Part shown: in pieces, positions 1 through 6,000 of the stretch
How positions within the stretch are numbered: position 1 is the stretch's first letter
How the letters are laid out: each line of letters begins with the position of its first letter
Virus record (IMG/VR): IMGVR_UViG_2609459844_000004
Coordinates: 1 to 7,056 of that record
Source of the DNA: a virus
Lineage: Duplodnaviria; Heunggongvirae; Uroviricota; Caudoviricetes
DNA: 7,056 bases
Reading direction: 5' to 3' (one strand)
Made by a program: the position numbers

Positions 1-3000
1 GAAATCCGTCTTCATATTGTTTGCGATGTCCCTGATGAACTTATTGATTTCACGTTTGAATGGAAAGGACTGAAGAAATTATGCGTGGCAGTCTCCTTTC
101 GGTCAATAATAGCAGAACAAAAGAAAGAGCCAGAAATGACGGTCAGATATTATATCAGTTCTGCTGATTTAACCGCAGAAAAGTTCGCCACAGCAATCCG
201 AAACCACTGGCACGTGGAGAATAAGCTGCACTGGCGTCTGGACGTGGTAATGAATGAAGACGACTGCAAAATAAGAAGAGGAAACGCCGCAGAATTATTT
301 TCAGGGATACGGCACATCGCTATTAATATTTTGACGAATGATAAGGTATTCAAGGCAGGGTTAAGACGTAAGATGCGAAAAGTGTGGGGTAGTGATCAAT
401 TCTGGGCGGAGTTCGTGCAGCCTGGTAGACCCTGCAAGCCTTGTGTGGCGCGGGGTATGGTGATTTAGTGTGATTCTGGGCGGATTTGTGAGAAATGACC
501 AAAAACGCTTTTTTTTGCGCTTTTTTCTGGGCGCTTTTGATCTGGTTCTGCTACAAACTTAACGGGTTTTAAATGCTTTTAAAAAAGTGTTTTATCCTTA
601 CCCGTTTTCCTCAATTTGTTCTCATCTGTTGTGTTCGGTTTTGTTGTGGTTATTGCTGATTAGCTAACAGCACACGCCCCGCCAAAACGAGGCGCTTATG
701 CTGATTTCTTGTTTACAGGCTTAGTTTCTTGCTCCGGTGTGACGGGAACGCGATCACCTGGTGTTCCAGCACAGAAAATGGCTTTGGCGCGGCGCAAAAT
801 CTCTTTGTCATTTTCCTCATCGCCAGCTAATGCCATGCAAACAGCGTCTTTAAGCGATTGCCTGATGTTCAGGCTTTGAATGGCCTTCCTTTGCTCCTCA
901 AGTTCGCTATCGGCTTGCTTAGTTTGCCTGGTGGGTTGCTGTAGGCGTTCCAAGATTCCTTTAATGCCCATATCGCATATTGCACTTATCAGTTGTTCCT
1001 TATCTTCTGTGGACGCTCTTTTCAATAACTCGTTAACTAGCTCGTTTGTAATATCGGGAGAAGGCTGCGCTGTTTGATTTGATAGAGAACCTCCTTTGGC
1101 GGTGGGTTCCTCACCATAAGCGAGCCAATTTAAGCTCACTTGTTCTTTATCTGAGATAAGACAAGCTATTTTAAAAGAAGGCTCTGTTCCTTTATGAATG
1201 TAGTTGTTTAAGGTTGAAGGGGGGATTCCCCAATCACTCGCAGCAGTTCTGACACTACGGTTACCTATCAGCTTTACTAAACGCTCTCTGAAACTTTCTT
1301 TTCCCTGGTCGACAAAAGAAAAAGCATCATCATTTCTAGTCATTTTTTCTTTCCTCTATAACTGATTGATTTTAATTACAAAAACCATATAAAGACCAAA
1401 ATCAAAAAGAAAATACAAAGAAAGAGCTATTTTTGCTTTACATGGGCTACATATGGATCAATACTTGTATCCGAAGGGATAACACGGCGGTGTTATCCGC
1501 ACGGATAACTTTTAAGGGTAACCTAATGATGGTTAGAAATGAAGTAATGAACAAAGACTGGCACCGCGAGTACATCGTTGCCGCTGTGCACACCAAAGGT
1601 TTTACATTGCGTGAACTTTCTGAACGCGCTGGTCTAAAAAAAGACTCTTTAAAAAATGCACTGTATCGCTCATGCCCTAAATATGAACGCATCATAGCCG
1701 ATGCTATTGGTGTGGAACCTGCGGAGATCTGGCCAAGCCGGTATGCCAGTAAGGCGGCGTAATGTTTTATTCAGCCAATGAGCTGGCCGGTCTTCCTGGT
1801 TTGCCCGGTACAGTTCAGGGGGTGCGCTGGACGCTCAATCGGATCACAGAGACGCACCCAGAATGGAAGCGCAAGCGCGAAGGCACCAAAGCATTCGAGT
1901 ATCACATCGACTGCCTGCCCGCTGAAGCGCAGAAAGTTTTACGTAAGCGCCTGACTCATCAGGTCCTGGAAGATGCACAACTGCCCGCCGTAGTTGAGCA
2001 GAAAGCAGTTAAAAACGTCGCCGTTCGCGATGAACTGGAGGTGATGGTCAAATGCCCGGAGCTGGCATTACGCGAAGTCCAGTCACTGACCGACAAGCAA
2101 AAGGCCATCGCTGATGCGCGGATAAGCGATTTTTTTGACGCTGTTACGTCCCCTTTAAAGACCATTAACAGCGTGATTAAAAAAATCCAGACTGTGCGTG
2201 CCACGCTGGTAAATACCCTGCTGACGTTCAAAAGTGATTCATTCTCCACAGTCGATAATGTTGTGTCACTGGCCAGCGAACCCGGAAAGTTTATCGGCGG
2301 GCTGGCAGAGGTGCTGGAAATCCACACGTCAGATGTCGGGCACGCGGTGCCGGTTCTGGCGCGTACTGATTCCGCCACCACGACCGGGCTGACCGGAGAA
2401 GACAGCGTCGCCAGTTCTGCGACCGTGATGACCTGCTGGAATGAGGTGATGGCAGATATGGATGAGCTGGTCGCGCTGCCGGTCGCACTGGTCAGCGGTG
2501 ATAAAACGCCGTCTGTGGCACTTCCGCCGGATGCGTCCGTGGAAGACGTGCAGGACGTGAAAGCGGCTTATGCGGTTCTGGCGGCCTCAGAGCTGGCCAG
2601 TGTGGCGACGGCAGTACTGTCCGATGAAGCCCAGTCAGAACAGCTTATACCGGCGGATATCGGGCGACTGGTCGGGGATGTGCGCACCCGCTTACAGGCA
2701 GCCATTACGCTGTTCCGTGAACGCTATGAAGGCGAACGCGAACGGATAACTGAAACCGCATCACCACTGGGGCTGATGTACCCGGAAATCATTCAGAGCA
2801 TGAAGAACGTGGCGGCATCCGTGCAGGATGTCGGCCTGCTGGTTCTGTCACGCCGCCCACCGCTGACGCAGAAACAGGTGCAGGCGGACAGCTGTCTGCT
2901 GTTGCTGGCGTGGCAGTGGTACGGCGATTACAGCCGTGCGGCAGAGCTGCAACGTCTGAACCCGCAGCTGCGTGACCCGAACAACATAACCGCCGGGATG

Positions 3001-6000
3001 GTGATTAATGCCTACGCAAAATAACGACGACAAAATCAGCCTGGTTATTGCCGGAAGGTCGCATTCTGACTGGAGCAGTTATCGTATTGACAGCGATTTC
3101 CTGAAACGGGAAATATATTTCCGCAGAACTGGTAGCCGAGGCTGACGTCATGGAAACCGTGAAGGCGTCAGCAGCGCGCGTTCTGGCACAAATCACCCCG
3201 TTGCAGGCATCAATGACGCTGTCAGACTGGGAGCGCGTGTATGACGTGGCACCACGTGAGGGCGCAACGCAACAGGAAAGGCGACAGAATATCCTGGTAA
3301 AAATGGCGGCGACAGGCGGGCTGTCAATTCCCTATTTTAAAAATCTGGCCGCAAGCCTGGGATACACCATAACGATAACCGAACCGCGAGCCTTTCGCAC
3401 CGGGGTAAATCGTTGCGGTGACCGTCTGCTTATCCCTGAGATGCGCTGGGTATGGCAGGTCAATGTTATTGGTGCAAAAACGCCGGTATACCGTTTCAGA
3501 ACAGGCGCATCTGCAACAGGTGAACCACTGACAGCCTTTGGTGAATCCATTTTAGAAAATACCTTTAAAGACCTTAAACCGGCTTTTACAGACTGTTATT
3601 TCACGTATGAGGATAAGCAGTAATGCAGAATTTAATGCCTCCGGTGAATACGCCGGATCAATTGTTTCACGATGGTGACCCGACTCAGGGCATTGAGGGC
3701 ACTATTGTTTATGCAGAGCACATGAATAATCAGCAGGGGGCCATTCGCGACCTGCAACAGGAAGTTATTAATGTACTCAGCGAAGTTGGTATATCGCCGG
3801 ACCCGAAAAAACAGAGTCAACTGGCTGAGGCGCTGTCTTTATATGTAGGGGAAAAAGTTCCTGACGCATCATTAACGAAAAAGGGCATCGTTCAGCTCAG
3901 CAGCGCAACAGACAGTGACTCAGAAGAACTGGCAGCCACACCAAAGGCAATAAAGGCGTTAGCACAAAAAATTACAGAATTACAGGGTACAGCTTTACCG
4001 GTCGGGACACCAATACCGTGGCCGTCTGATTCAGTGCCATCCGGCTATGCCTTAATGCAGGGACAAAGTTTTGATAAAGGTTCTTACCCTAAACTGGCCA
4101 CAGCTTACCCGTCCGGGATTATCCCGGATATGCGGGGCTGGACCATTAAGGGAAAACCTGCCAGTGGTCGGGCTGTTCTCTCTCAGGAACAGGATGGCAT
4201 TAAATCGCATACTCACAGTGCCAGCGCATCAAATACTGATCTCGGCACGAAAAGCACCAGCTCTTTCGATTATGGAACCAAAACGACATCCAGTTTTGAT
4301 TATGGCTCCAAATCAACAAATTCAACGGGTGACCATGCACATTCGTTTGGTGTTTATCAGGGTGATTACGCGGGGGGGCAAGCCGCTGACGGTAATGAAA
4401 CGCCGACAGGGACAAAATGGACGTCCACTAACGGTAACCATGCACACTCTGTTCAGATTGGTGCTCATAACCATACAGTAGGTATTGGTGCTCATACGCA
4501 CACCGTTGCGATTGGTTCACATGGACACACCATCACCGTTAATGCTGCCGGTAACGCAGAGAACACCGTCAAAAACATCGCATTTAACTATATCGTGAGG
4601 CTTGCATAATGACGTTTAAAATGAGCGATAACGCACAAACCATTCGTGTATTTAATTATCTTGAAGATACAAAAGAATTTATCGGTAGTGGTGACGCTTA
4701 TATACCACCTCATACCGGACTACCCGCAAACTGTACGGATATTGCGCCACCGGAAATCCAGGAAGGTTTTGCTGCTGTATTTAATAGCGATAGCCAGTCC
4801 TGGGACCTTGTAAAAGATTATCGGGGCAAAACGGTTTATTCAACGGAAACCGGAAATGCAGTCCCGATATCCGAACTGGGAGAACTTCCAGAAAATGTCA
4901 CATTTATTGCGCCAGACGGAGAATACCAACGCTGGGATGGTAGCCAGTGGGTGACCGATGAAGAAGCAGAGCGTAATGCACTGATTAATCTGGCAACAGA
5001 AAAGAAAGCCAGCCTGCTAAAACAGACAGGAGAACAAATCGCAATCTTACAGGATGCTGTTGATTTTGGTGAAGCGACACCAGAAGAACAGGAGCAACTG
5101 ACAGCTCTCAGAAAATTACGAATAAAGTTAAATCGAATTCAACCGGAAAACGCGCCAGATATTGACTGGTCAGACTTTGAATAAATCAGACAGCCGCCCG
5201 CAGGCGGCTTTTTATCATTCAGAGGCTTTATGTCTGTATTAATTTCAGGTGCGCTGATTAATGGCGCTGGCGTTCCGATGGCGGAATGCAAAATTTATTT
5301 AGATGCACAGGTTAATACCAGTGAAGTGGTTACTGAATCATTTGCGGTTATTGAAACCGATGCAGCGGGACAGTATGCCTTTGAAGCGCAAAAAGGCAAA
5401 TACACCGTACACATCAAGCAAAAGAACGGCCCTAAGTGCTGCGTGGGTGATATTTCGGTTTACGACGACTCAAAGCCCGGCACACTGAATGATTTTCTGA
5501 CCGCTCTCGATGAAGGCGACCTGAAGCCAGATGTGGTGAAACGATTTGAAGATTTGACAAGTCAGGCGCAACGAAGTGCAGATGTGGCAATATCAGCGAC
5601 AAAAAGGGCAGAAGCGTTACTGTCTGAAATGCAGGGAATAGCCGGTAGTTTTCCCGGTTTGCGCTTTGAGAACTTTGATGACATCGTGAGTCGTTGCACT
5701 ACTGCAATGTTAAAACTGGAACAACCCGAGGTTGTTGATACATCAATATCTTTAAAAATAAAAGAAAATATCGATTTTAATTATGTCGGTGCAGTTAACG
5801 GATATTGCGATATATCCGAACCGGAAAAATATAAAGTCTCCATGTATGCCTACACAACGGGAGAATATTTTAACGGCGACGCTAATTTGAATAGTGACGG
5901 AATTTTCTATTTCAGACGTTGCTGGACGGGAGCAAAACAGTTTCGTCTTATTCGGATTGAGGATAATGCGTGGCTCACAACGCTGGAGTTTCCACTGCTC

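What the first reader, a model, noticed from the sequence alone, without database searches (positions are those of the whole stretch)
1762..3024. In-frame chimera of the Mu A transposase N-terminal domain with tail-module sequence
The ORF begins exactly where transposase A should (overlapping the ner stop) and its first ~65 residues match the MuA enhancer/operator-binding domain. The protein then continues for ~355 residues with no transposase-like sequence and ends overlapping a baseplate-hub-like start. The simplest reading is a large internal deletion, removing most of A, B and the middle, lysis, head and most tail genes, that happened to fuse two genes in frame. The product would keep a DNA-binding domain that recognises the phage operator/enhancer but no catalytic core, so it might act as a dominant-negative against incoming related phages. 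Alternatively it is a genuine undescribed protein.
Basis: partly seen in the sequence, partly recalled or inferred. Interest (0 to 1): 0.6.

Follow-up and report, generated by a model that had tools for sequence, protein, structure and literature searches.

The report
Deletion scar fusing transposase and tail genes
The 420-residue ORF is the in-frame scar of a 25.8-kb deletion inside a decayed Mu-like prophage, which is ordinary, but the deletion starts at a 10-base motif in the transposase gene where at least five other independent deletions also start.

Summary
Observation confirmed, coordinates corrected. ORF 1762-3024 is a two-part chimera. Codons 1-121 (nt 1762-2124) are 99% identical to the start of the 680-aa transposase of intact E. 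coli Mu-like prophages. Codons 122-420 are 95-96% identical to residues 151-449 of their 449-aa "DNA circularization"/baseplate-hub protein (Mu gp43-like). The joint is a 2-nt TA overlap at 2123-2124, not 1950-2000. The deletion removed 25,808 bp relative to the intact prophage in NZ_CM135183.1. A second, out-of-frame 3.3-kb deletion lies at 3105/3106.

No intact phage encodes this protein as one gene. The only full-length match is the identical protein, from a single clonal lineage. The remnant keeps both Mu-type ends, a 5-bp target duplication, and an intact repressor and ner. The fusion keeps only the enhancer-binding winged helix plus a stub, with no end-binding or catalytic domains. It is most likely a neutral, repressed scar; a dominant-negative role is untested.

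One unexpected result: 8 of 10 distinct deletion joints found in this transposase gene lie immediately after one of two copies of TGCGCGRATA. Six of them are at exactly the window's nucleotide, each with a different partner. This is a sequence-specific deletion hot spot whose mechanism is unknown.

The parts
378..382 (.). 5-bp target-site duplication AAAAG, left copy. The right copy follows the prophage right end about 100 nt beyond the window (L005 7154-7158).
   Evidence: The same arrangement, with ATACG, flanks the intact prophage in NZ_CM135183.1.
383..560 (+). Left end (attL) of the Mu-like prophage. It starts TGTGGGGTAG and carries CAATTCTGGGCGG-type repeats that are also found at the right end.
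   Evidence: Homology to intact prophages begins at 382/383 although their flanks differ. End repeats were compared.
696..1343 (-). Intact prophage repressor gene (215 aa, CI-type HTH).
   Evidence: Pfam Phage_CI_repr; phrog_3037 transcriptional repressor at E=1e-57. It has the same length as, and about 99% nt identity to, the gene in intact prophages.
1437..1465 (+). Promoter-like site upstream of ner, a candidate early promoter. This is a consensus match only.
   Evidence: TTTACA-17-AATACT, 9 of 12 matches. The number of such sites in the region is no higher than in shuffled sequence.
1526..1762 (+). ner-like gene (78 aa). Its stop overlaps the fusion's ATG.
   Evidence: Pfam HTH_35 at E=6e-26; phrog_769; annotated at the same place in intact prophages.
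1762..3024 (+). The 420-aa chimeric ORF (the finding).
1762..2124 (+). Transposase-derived part, codons 1-121. It comprises the winged-helix enhancer-binding domain (about residues 1-70), a linker, and the first helix of the next domain.
   Evidence: 99.1% nt identity to L003 2763-3125; 99% aa identity to the 680-aa P0067 over 29% of the query; AlphaFold pLDDT about 90 for residues 1-60 and below 50 for 71-95.
2115..2124 (+). Motif TGCGCGGATA, whose 3' edge is the deletion endpoint. It is one of only two exact copies of TGCGCGRATA in the intact 38.5-kb locus.
   Evidence: The recurrent joints are shown.
2123..2124 (.). Joint 1: a TA dinucleotide shared by both parent sequences. It is in frame: ATA (Ile121) of the transposase overlaps TTA (Leu150) of gp43.
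2123..3024 (+). gp43-like ('DNA circularization'/baseplate hub) part, residues 151-449 of the parent. It lacks the DNA_circ_N domain (parent residues 7-91).
   Evidence: 96.6% nt identity to L004 1501-2402; Pfam on the parent P0003; phrog_184 on residues 115-420.
3008..3145 (+). Remnant of the gp44/P-like baseplate gene: 33 genuine codons followed by 12 out-of-frame codons.
3105..3106 (.). Joint 2: a second internal deletion of about 3.3 kb, running from gp44 codon 33 to gp48 codon 19. It is out of frame and is not at the motif.
   Evidence: L001 3984 joined to 7289.
3105..3623 (+). Remnant of the gp48 (YmfQ)-like gene, missing its first 18 codons. An internal ATG at 3150 gives a 157-aa ORF.
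   Evidence: Pfam Phage_Mu_Gp48, profile positions 29-150 of 150.
3623..7056 (+). Surviving tail-fibre module: tail fibre (3623-4609), fibre assembly protein (4609-5184), and a 608-aa protein with a tail-fibre N-terminal domain (5230-7056).

Best explanation
The ORF is a deletion scar. A Mu-like transposable prophage of about 35.7 kb inserted next to yafV, into the 3' end of an ISAs1 element. It later lost 25.8 kb in one event. The event joined the TA at nt 362-363 of its transposase gene (codon 121) to a TA in codon 150 of the gp43-like baseplate-hub gene, and the joint happened to be in frame.

The product keeps the enhancer/operator-binding winged helix of the transposase plus a non-functional stub of the next domain. 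It is fused to the C-terminal two thirds of a tail protein. It has no end-binding domain, no DDE core and no MuB/ClpX-interacting tail, so it cannot transpose anything. The gp43 piece cannot build a tail because its N-terminal domain and all partner proteins are gone.

The gene sits in the early operon, behind an intact repressor and ner. It is therefore probably transcribed very little, and it is most likely selectively neutral.

The left endpoint was not random. It lies at the 3' edge of the motif TGCGCGGATA, a sequence-specific deletion hot spot in this transposase gene.

Shown: the origin, both breakpoints, the domain content, clonality and the recurrence of the endpoint. Inferred: low expression, lack of function, and the nature of the hot-spot mechanism.
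For: Origin and breakpoints:
- Window 382-2124 is 99.1% identical to the left end through transposase codon 121 of the intact prophage in NZ_CM135183.1. Window 2123-3106 is 96.6% identical to its gp43-like gene from codon 150 onward. The two segments lie 25,808 bp apart in that genome.
- The same 5-bp duplication, AAAAG, flanks both Mu-type ends. The element is therefore in situ and the losses are internal.

Not a normal gene:
- The only full-length protein match is the identical protein. All other hits are 449-aa gp43-like proteins (about 72% of the query covered) or roughly 680-aa transposases (29% covered).
- Of 59 complete E. coli genomes with this transposase, 58 have it uninterrupted across nt 1-1863 of the 2,043-nt gene, apart from variable first codons and one IS1 insertion.
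- None of 5,426 complete E. coli genomes has the window's joint.

Domain content:
- The parent transposase has HTH_Tnp_Mu_1 at 7-140, an rve core at 302-407 and Mu-transpos_C at 534-591. The fusion keeps only residues 1-121.
- The parent gp43-like protein has DNA_circ_N at 7-91, which is lost.
- The AlphaFold model is confident only for residues 1-60 and parts of the helical gp43 piece. It is disordered or low-confidence at 71-95 and across the joint at 120-139.

Decay and clonality:
- A second, out-of-frame deletion at 3105/3106 shows continuing decay.
- Eight of the 15 contigs that carry the protein were fetched, from NCBI, ENA and Logan. They differ from the window by 0-1 nt.

Hot spot:
- Other remnants end at the same nucleotide with unrelated partners.
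Against: - Expression was not measured. The fusion has a plausible translational coupling to ner (TAATG), and the promoter-like site is only a consensus match.
- The retained winged helix is intact and well folded in the model, so DNA binding is plausible.
- Remnants that keep exactly repressor, ner and 121 transposase residues recur in several lineages. PGAP annotates them as 'DNA-binding protein'. This could in principle reflect selection as well as a mutational hot spot.
- Fusions to phage genes are in frame more often than expected: 7 of the 9 joints with a readable tail.
Confidence: 0.85

Rival explanations
1. Domesticated regulator or transposition inhibitor. The fusion, or just its first 121 residues, is kept because the free enhancer/operator-binding domain competes with incoming full-length transposase for the enhancer. 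It would then protect the host from related Mu-like phages, in the way truncated transposases inhibit Tn5 or P elements.
For: - The winged-helix domain is complete and confidently modelled.
- At least six remnant types keep exactly these 121 residues together with repressor and ner.
- In MuA this subdomain binds the transpositional enhancer (PMC3362531).
- The first ~45 residues of the transposase often differ between prophages with different repressor alleles, though L014 pairs the window's N-terminus with a different repressor. This weakly suggests an operator/enhancer reader.
- There is an excess of in-frame fusions.
Against: - A nucleotide-exact recurrent endpoint cannot be produced by selection on a protein boundary. 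The same motif 35 nt downstream is also used, giving 132-residue products.
- The tails after residue 121 are unrelated to each other: 8, 9, 20, 130, about 177 and 299 residues.
- The gene lies under an intact repressor, so it should be off exactly when a homo-immune phage arrives.
- All copies of the window's version are clonal, so conservation says nothing.
- No expression or inhibition data exist.
Confidence: 0.1
2. Genuine undescribed single gene of a phage tail or early module, not a chimera.
For: A long uninterrupted ORF with a good start context, annotated as a normal CDS in public assemblies.
Against: - Both halves are 95-99% identical to parts of two separate genes that lie 25.8 kb apart in intact relatives.
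- There is no diverged full-length homologue.
- The joint falls inside a helix of one parent domain and in the middle of the other protein.
Confidence: 0.01
3. The shared left endpoint reflects one ancestral deletion inherited by all remnants, spread as a mini-Mu mobilised in trans and reshuffled by recombination, rather than a hot spot.
For: - The window's remnant keeps both ends and a target duplication, so it could in principle be mobilised by a helper phage.
- Mu-like prophages are mosaic.
- Two of the carriers (L013, L054) share a 99% identical left arm.
Against: - The partners at the joint differ: gp43 nt 449, gp43 nt 834, gp46, host frwC, a DUF4376 gene and one unidentified sequence. 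Even a nested history therefore needs repeated events that start at the same nucleotide.
- Carriers have different repressors and insertion sites, and left arms only 89% identical. An intact transposase with the L013-type N-terminus exists (P0128).
- A second copy of the motif is used twice.
Confidence: 0.04

Closest known systems
Phage Mu transposase MuA (gpA), subdomain I-alpha (PDB 1TNS) and the Pfam family HTH_Tnp_Mu_1
   Same: Residues 2-63 align to 1TNS (E=8e-4), and Pfam PF02316 is matched above its cut-off. The gene sits immediately after ner, as A does in Mu. In MuA this subdomain binds the transpositional enhancer (PMC3362531).
   Different: Only the first 121 of 680 residues of the parent are present. 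There is no complete end-binding I-beta/I-gamma region, no DDE core and no C-terminal domain. The parent is only distantly related to isolated phages, at 44-49% aa identity to the best phage records.
Mu gp43 (N) 'DNA circularization' protein / baseplate hub (Pfam DNA_circ_N, phrog_184)
   Same: Residues 122-420 are 95-96% identical to residues 151-449 of 449-aa family members, and phrog_184 is matched at E=4e-52. The natural stop and the overlap with the next baseplate gene are kept.
   Different: The family-defining N-terminal domain (parent residues 7-91) is deleted. The tape measure, sheath and tube genes are absent, as are most of the baseplate genes gp44-gp47. The piece therefore has no assembly partners.
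Truncated-transposase inhibitors (Tn5 Inh, P-element KP repressor, IS1 InsA). Recalled from general knowledge, not tested here.
   Same: A DNA-binding N-terminus without a catalytic core, encoded at the transposase locus.
   Different: Those inhibitors are made by alternative starts, splicing or frameshifting from an active element, and they have demonstrated inhibition. This protein is the product of a genomic deletion in a dead element, sits under repressor control, and has no functional data.
Mu repressor c DNA-binding domain (PDB 1G4D/1QPM)
   Same: It has the same winged-helix family as MuA I-alpha. There is a weak match at E=0.08 over residues 4-58.
   Different: The repressor of this prophage is a different, CI-type HTH protein. 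The fusion is not the immunity repressor.
'Grounded' or defective prophages produced by internal deletions (reviewed in PMC6379469, listed, not read)
   Same: A prophage that has lost its replication/transposition, lysis and head genes but keeps immunity genes and a few tail genes.
   Different: The deletion endpoint here is a recurrent, motif-defined site rather than an apparently random one.
Site-specific donor with heterologous acceptors: recombination at quasi-sites by serine invertases, and illegitimate recombination by vaccinia topoisomerase at CCCTT. Recalled from memory and offered only as an analogy for the hot spot.
   Same: One fixed endpoint immediately 3' of a short recognition sequence that stays on the retained side, variable partners, and only a 2-nt overlap.
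   Different: No enzyme is identified. The site does not resemble gix/hix sites. It has only a weak likeness (8 of 11) to a XerC arm, with no XerD arm. Nothing was tested experimentally.

Membership tests
MuA-type DDE transposase | N-terminal enhancer-binding winged helix (HTH_Tnp_Mu_1 / subdomain I-alpha) | tested here: met
   Pfam PF02316 at 40.4 bits against a 23.3-bit cut-off; 1TNS at E=8e-4; phrog_310 on residues 1-121.
MuA-type DDE transposase | Complete end-binding domains (I-beta/I-gamma equivalents) | tested here: not met
   Homology to the parent stops at residue 121. Only one helix follows the linker, and it is modelled with low confidence.
MuA-type DDE transposase | rve/DDE catalytic core | tested here: not met
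   The parent has rve at residues 302-407. The fusion has no rve hit.
MuA-type DDE transposase | Mu transposase C-terminal domain | tested here: not met
   The parent has PF09299 at residues 534-591. It is absent from the fusion.
Mu gp43-like DNA circularization / baseplate hub protein | DNA_circ_N domain (PF07157) | tested here: not met
   Present at residues 7-91 of the parent P0003. It is deleted in the fusion and gives no Pfam hit.
Mu gp43-like DNA circularization / baseplate hub protein | C-terminal body of the protein, and a position upstream of and overlapping the gp44 gene | tested here: met
   95-96% identity to parent residues 151-449; phrog_184 profile positions 143-411 of 411; overlap with the gp44 remnant at 3008-3024.
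Truncated-transposase transposition inhibitor | Retains DNA binding and lacks catalysis | tested here: met
   Domain content as in the rows above. DNA binding itself is inferred, not measured.
Truncated-transposase transposition inhibitor | Is expressed and inhibits transposition of the cognate element | not testable with these tools
   There are no expression or phenotype data. An intact repressor upstream argues for low expression.
Transposable (Mu-like) prophage, intact | Both ends with a 5-bp target duplication | tested here: met
   The left end starts TGTGGGG, the right end closes ...GAAGTTAC(A), and AAAAG lies on both sides.
Transposable (Mu-like) prophage, intact | Functional A and B genes and a full morphogenetic module | tested here: not met
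   25.8 kb and 3.3 kb are missing relative to intact relatives.

The most novel reading that the evidence does not exclude
The motif TGCGCGRATA inside the transposase gene of this Mu-like prophage family is a specific donor site for an unidentified DNA-cleaving or strand-transferring activity, either host-encoded or phage-encoded. This activity repeatedly 'grounds' these prophages by deleting everything 3' of the motif. What remains is a stable module of repressor, ner and a 121-residue operator/enhancer-binding protein, which the host keeps for immunity or for anti-transposition defence. The window's chimera would then be one product of a directed prophage-inactivation route and not a random accident.
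Probability: 0.15. Interest if true: 0.75.

Novelty: new member of a known kind. Interest (0 to 1): 0.4.

Why it matters
On its own the chimera matters little. It is a clear, precisely mapped example of how prophage decay creates long chimeric ORFs that annotation pipelines then name misleadingly ('multidrug DMT transporter permease', 'DNA-binding protein').

The wider observation is more useful. Independent remnants of the same prophage family break at the same nucleotide, next to a 10-base motif that occurs twice in the gene and is used at both copies. This points to a sequence-specific route of prophage inactivation. If it is real and enzyme-driven, it would show how hosts, or the phages themselves, convert dangerous transposable prophages into harmless immunity-conferring remnants. 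It can be tested directly with a deletion-reporter assay.

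Tried and rejected
1. Pseudo Mu end at the hot spot. The retained side ends in ...GGATA, not CA. Neither side resembles the terminal 60 nt of attL or attR: local alignment scores of 17-24 are no better than background, and there is no TTCTGGGC core at the right distance. Rejected.
2. Hairpin or cruciform at the hot spot or at partner sites. Folding of the intact region gave z = +0.3 to +0.9, and partner sites show no consistent structure. 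Rejected. One inverted repeat lies just after the window's joint (z = -2.8), but it is native to the gp43-like gene.
3. Invertase (gix/hix-like) or resolvase site, compared by eye with sequences recalled from memory. No resemblance. No invertase is annotated in the intact reference prophage.
4. Xer site. GATGCGCGGAT matches the psi XerC arm, as recalled, at 8 of 11 positions. There is no XerD arm at 6-8 nt, and the partners have no arms. Left as a weak lead.
5. IS-mediated deletion. There is no IS at any joint. The one IS1 found in a relative's transposase gene sits near nt 1700, not at the motif.
6. Scans of metagenome contigs and genome contigs with ATCGCTGATGCGCGGATAV, and of genome contigs with the 45-nt window joint. 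These gave 0 hits or only chance 19-25-nt hits in unrelated taxa. Dead end.
7. Foldseek of the AlphaFold model against the PDB. No match with E<0.9. Uninformative.
8. Literature searches for a Mu-prophage deletion hot spot, or for this family's remnants, returned nothing relevant.
9. Contig ends at transposase nt 350-356 in some assemblies were considered as hidden joints. They are more simply explained by assembly breaks, so they were not counted.
Those two joints, and P0157, are therefore known only at the protein level.

Full report
WHAT THE WINDOW IS

The window is identical to nt 2-7057 of contig JNPF01000006.1, from E. coli assembly GCA_000703525.1. It holds, in order:
- the 3' part of an ISAs1-family transposase gene (NCBIfam NF033564);
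- the left end of a Mu-like transposable prophage, starting at nt 383;
- a CI-type repressor on the minus strand (696-1343);
- a ner-like gene (1526-1762);
- the ORF in question (1762-3024);
- fragments of two baseplate genes;
- an intact tail-fibre module that runs to the end of the window.

In the longer contig the prophage's right end follows about 100 nt after the window. The same 5 bp, AAAAG, flank both ends. The host genes yafV, ivy, fadE and gmhA come next. The element is therefore a roughly 6.8-kb remnant sitting where the phage originally inserted.

CHECKING THE OBSERVATION

The ORF is real, and its ATG overlaps the ner stop.
- Against Pfam only the N-terminus scores: HTH_Tnp_Mu_1, 40.4 bits against a cut-off of 23.3.
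- Against solved structures the best match is MuA subdomain I-alpha, 1TNS, over residues 2-63.
- PHROGs splits the protein cleanly into transposase (phrog_310, residues 1-121) and baseplate hub (phrog_184, residues 115-420).

MAPPING THE BREAKPOINT

Megablast against 5,426 complete E. coli genomes showed two blocks of homology. The left block stops at window nt 2124 and the right block starts at nt 2123. The intact prophage of strain Z1324SEC0014 (NZ_CM135183.1) carries both parents: a 680-aa transposase and a 449-aa 'DNA circularization protein'.

Direct alignment gives:
- window 382-2124 = 99.1% identical to the left arm through transposase codon 121;
- window 2123-3106 = 96.6% identical to the gp43-like gene from codon 150, plus the first 33 codons of the next gene.

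The two parental sequences share only the dinucleotide TA at the joint. The frames coincide: ATA (Ile121) with TTA (Leu150). This gives 121 + 299 = 420 residues. The DNA lost is 25,808 bp in the reference. It comprises the rest of A, then B, the early and middle genes, mor, the lysis genes, terminase, portal, head, sheath, tape measure and the first third of gp43.

A second deletion of about 3.3 kb at 3105/3106 joins codon 33 of the gp44-like gene to codon 19 of the gp48-like gene, out of frame.

IS IT A NORMAL GENE ANYWHERE?

No. In a 5.8-billion-protein collection only the identical sequence covers the whole ORF. Every other hit is either a roughly 449-aa gp43-like protein covering about 72% of the query, or a roughly 680-aa transposase covering 29%.
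- Among 59 complete E. coli genomes with this transposase gene, 58 have it uninterrupted across nt 1-1863 of the 2,043-nt gene, apart from variable first codons and one IS1 insertion.
- None has the window's joint.
- The exact protein is on at least 15 contigs. The eight that were fetched (NCBI assemblies, gut metagenomes, Logan) differ from the window by 0-1 nt. This is a single recent lineage, so conservation carries no information about selection.

WHAT THE PRODUCT CAN AND CANNOT DO

The parent transposase has the usual layout: HTH_Tnp_Mu_1 at 7-140, an rve core at 302-407 and Mu-transpos_C at 534-591. In MuA:
- subdomain I-alpha (aa 1-76) binds the transpositional enhancer;
- I-beta and I-gamma bind the ends;
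- domain II carries the DDE triad;
- III-beta contacts MuB and ClpX (PMC3362531).

The fusion keeps the I-alpha equivalent, the linker and one helix of the next domain. The AlphaFold model is confident (pLDDT about 90) only for residues 1-60. It is below 50 for 71-95 and across the joint at 120-139. The gp43-derived piece lacks the family's N-terminal DNA_circ_N domain and nearly all of its structural partners. The protein therefore cannot be a transposase or a tail component. At most it is a DNA-binding protein with an irrelevant C-terminal extension.

It lies in the early operon, downstream of a promoter-like site, and under a repressor that is full-length and about 99% identical to those of intact relatives. 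It is therefore expected to be largely silent. My best reading is a neutral scar. The dominant-negative idea is mechanistically conceivable by analogy with truncated-transposase inhibitors, but it has no support here.

THE UNEXPECTED PART: A RECURRENT ENDPOINT

The protein search also returned a 298-aa protein (P0043). Its transposase part ends at the same residues...KAIADARI, but it continues with a different part of gp43. Its contig (L013) is a different prophage. It sits next to narZYWV and has a different repressor, a different transposase N-terminus and only 89% nt identity in the shared stretch. Even so, the transposase sequence stops at exactly the same nucleotide and joins gp43 at nt ~834, through a TA overlap.

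More joints followed:
- One complete genome (NZ_CM176496.1, L014) has a remnant in which the same nucleotide is joined through a TA to host frwC, deleting the rest of the prophage and part of the host locus.
- A metagenomic contig (L054) joins the same nucleotide through a TA to the 3' end of gp46.
- Cluster members add two further partners after Ile121 at the protein level: P0171 (tail SRTFFCHDW*) and P0170 (a DUF4376 tail-region protein).

The ten bases that end at this joint, TGCGCGGATA, recur once 35 nt downstream as TGCGCGAATA. These are the only two exact copies of TGCGCGRATA in the 38.5-kb reference locus. Two more deletions end right after that second copy:
- L018/P0100, joined to the protease/scaffold gene, seen at the DNA level;
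- P0157, with tail CVLP*, seen at the protein level.

Only two joints lie elsewhere: nt 373 joined to the B gene through a TA (L017), and nt 1368 joined to gp47 through an 11-nt microhomology (L055).

In total, 8 of 10 distinct joints lie at the 3' edge of the motif. The motif is always on the retained side. The overlap is a 2-nt TA in all four joints at the first copy that could be read as DNA. The partners share no other similarity. A second site preceded by the same 10-mer has a chance probability of roughly 3e-5, so this is a sequence-specific hot spot. Common descent cannot remove the need for repeated events at the same nucleotide, because the partners differ.

WHAT MIGHT CAUSE IT

I tested and rejected a pseudo Mu end, hairpins and an IS insertion, and rejected invertase-type sites by eye. 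A weak resemblance to a XerC-binding arm, with no XerD arm, is only a lead.

The pattern is the one expected of an enzyme that cleaves immediately 3' of a recognition sequence and then joins that end to heterologous acceptors. It has a fixed donor next to a retained motif, variable acceptors and a 2-nt overlap. A site-specific nick converted by replication into a one-ended break, then repaired through microhomology, would look the same. Which of these applies, and which protein is responsible, cannot be decided from sequence.

Selection on the protein cannot explain nucleotide-exact recurrence. The products carry unrelated tails of 8 to 299 residues.

COMPARISON WITH WHAT IS KNOWN, AND VERDICT

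The ORF fails three of four defining features of a MuA-type transposase. It also lacks the defining domain of the gp43 family, so it is a member of neither. It is a chimera of fragments of both, inside a defective ('grounded') prophage, which is a well-known kind of object. The parent phage family is known only as prophages. Its transposase is at most 49% identical, and its gp43-like protein at most about 37%, to anything in 50,697 phage records.

As a finding, the chimera is confirmed and explained, and it is ordinary. The deletion hot spot it led to is, as far as I could find, undescribed. That is the reason for a moderate interest score and not a low one.

Noticed in passing
window 2115-2124; L003 3116-3125 and 3151-3160; L013 10372-10381; L014 9354-9363; L054 473-482; L018 about 1649-1658: Deletion hot spot. 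8 of 10 distinct deletion joints in this Mu-like transposase gene lie right after TGCGCGRATA. Six partners are at copy 1 and two at copy 2. The overlap is a 2-nt TA in the four copy-1 joints read as DNA. The mechanism is unknown.
   Followed up: yes
window 3105-3106: A second, independent internal deletion of about 3.3 kb, from gp44 codon 33 to gp48 codon 19. It is out of frame, has a 1-2-nt overlap, and is not at the motif. It leaves a 45-aa and a 157-aa ORF.
   Followed up: yes
window 1-468 and 378-382; L005 7154-7158: The phage inserted into the 3' end of an ISAs1-family transposase gene, whose ORF now reads 86 nt into the prophage end. The 5-bp duplication AAAAG is intact on both sides, so the 6.8-kb remnant is a mini-Mu with both ends and might be mobilisable by a helper phage.
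   Followed up: partly
fusion proteins P0001, P0043, P0125, P0170, P0100, P0092, P0070: Seven of the nine joints with a readable tail are in frame with a phage gene. The partner TA at copy-1 joints falls in rare xTA codons (TTA, GTA). My estimate is a binomial p of about 0.01-0.05. This may be an ascertainment effect of searching at the protein level.
   Followed up: partly
window 1762-1900, compared with L013 10001-10150, L017, L018 and P0116-P0131: The first ~45 residues of the transposase (the recognition part of the winged helix) occur in at least five very different alleles. These often, but not always, change together with the repressor allele, while residues 46-121 are nearly invariant. 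This suggests exchangeable operator/enhancer-specificity modules.
   Followed up: no
protein P0001 and gp43-like relatives: NCBI records name this chimera and many gp43-like tail proteins 'multidrug DMT transporter permease'. UniRef and PGAP call the chimera 'DNA-binding protein'. The permease name is a propagated annotation error.
   Followed up: no
window 2128-2187: An imperfect inverted repeat of about 19 bp (GATTTTTTTGACGCTGTTA ... TAACAGCGTGATTAAAAAAATC) lies immediately after the joint (DNA fold z = -2.8). It is native to the gp43-like gene and weaker in the reference allele (z = -1.8).
   Followed up: partly
window about 2854-3009 (fusion residues 365-416): The C-terminus of the gp43-like part gives a weak hit to an endolysin PHROG (phrog_380, E=2.5e-4). 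By eye it looks like a LysM-type motif, which would be consistent with a peptidoglycan-contacting hub protein.
   Followed up: no
window 5476-7056: The 608-aa protein with a tail-fibre N-terminal domain is 89% identical at the nt level to a tail gene of the lambdoid phage phiSTEC1575-Stx2k. Tail-fibre modules are thus shared between Mu-like and lambdoid prophages.
   Followed up: no
P0136 (Providencia, 123 aa) and P0138/P0141 (Sodalis): Short 'DNA-binding proteins' in other genera are homologous to this transposase N-terminus. The Providencia protein stops two residues after the equivalent ...IADAR, and the Sodalis proteins stop or diverge 6-11 residues after it. No DNA was available to check the joints.
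   Followed up: no
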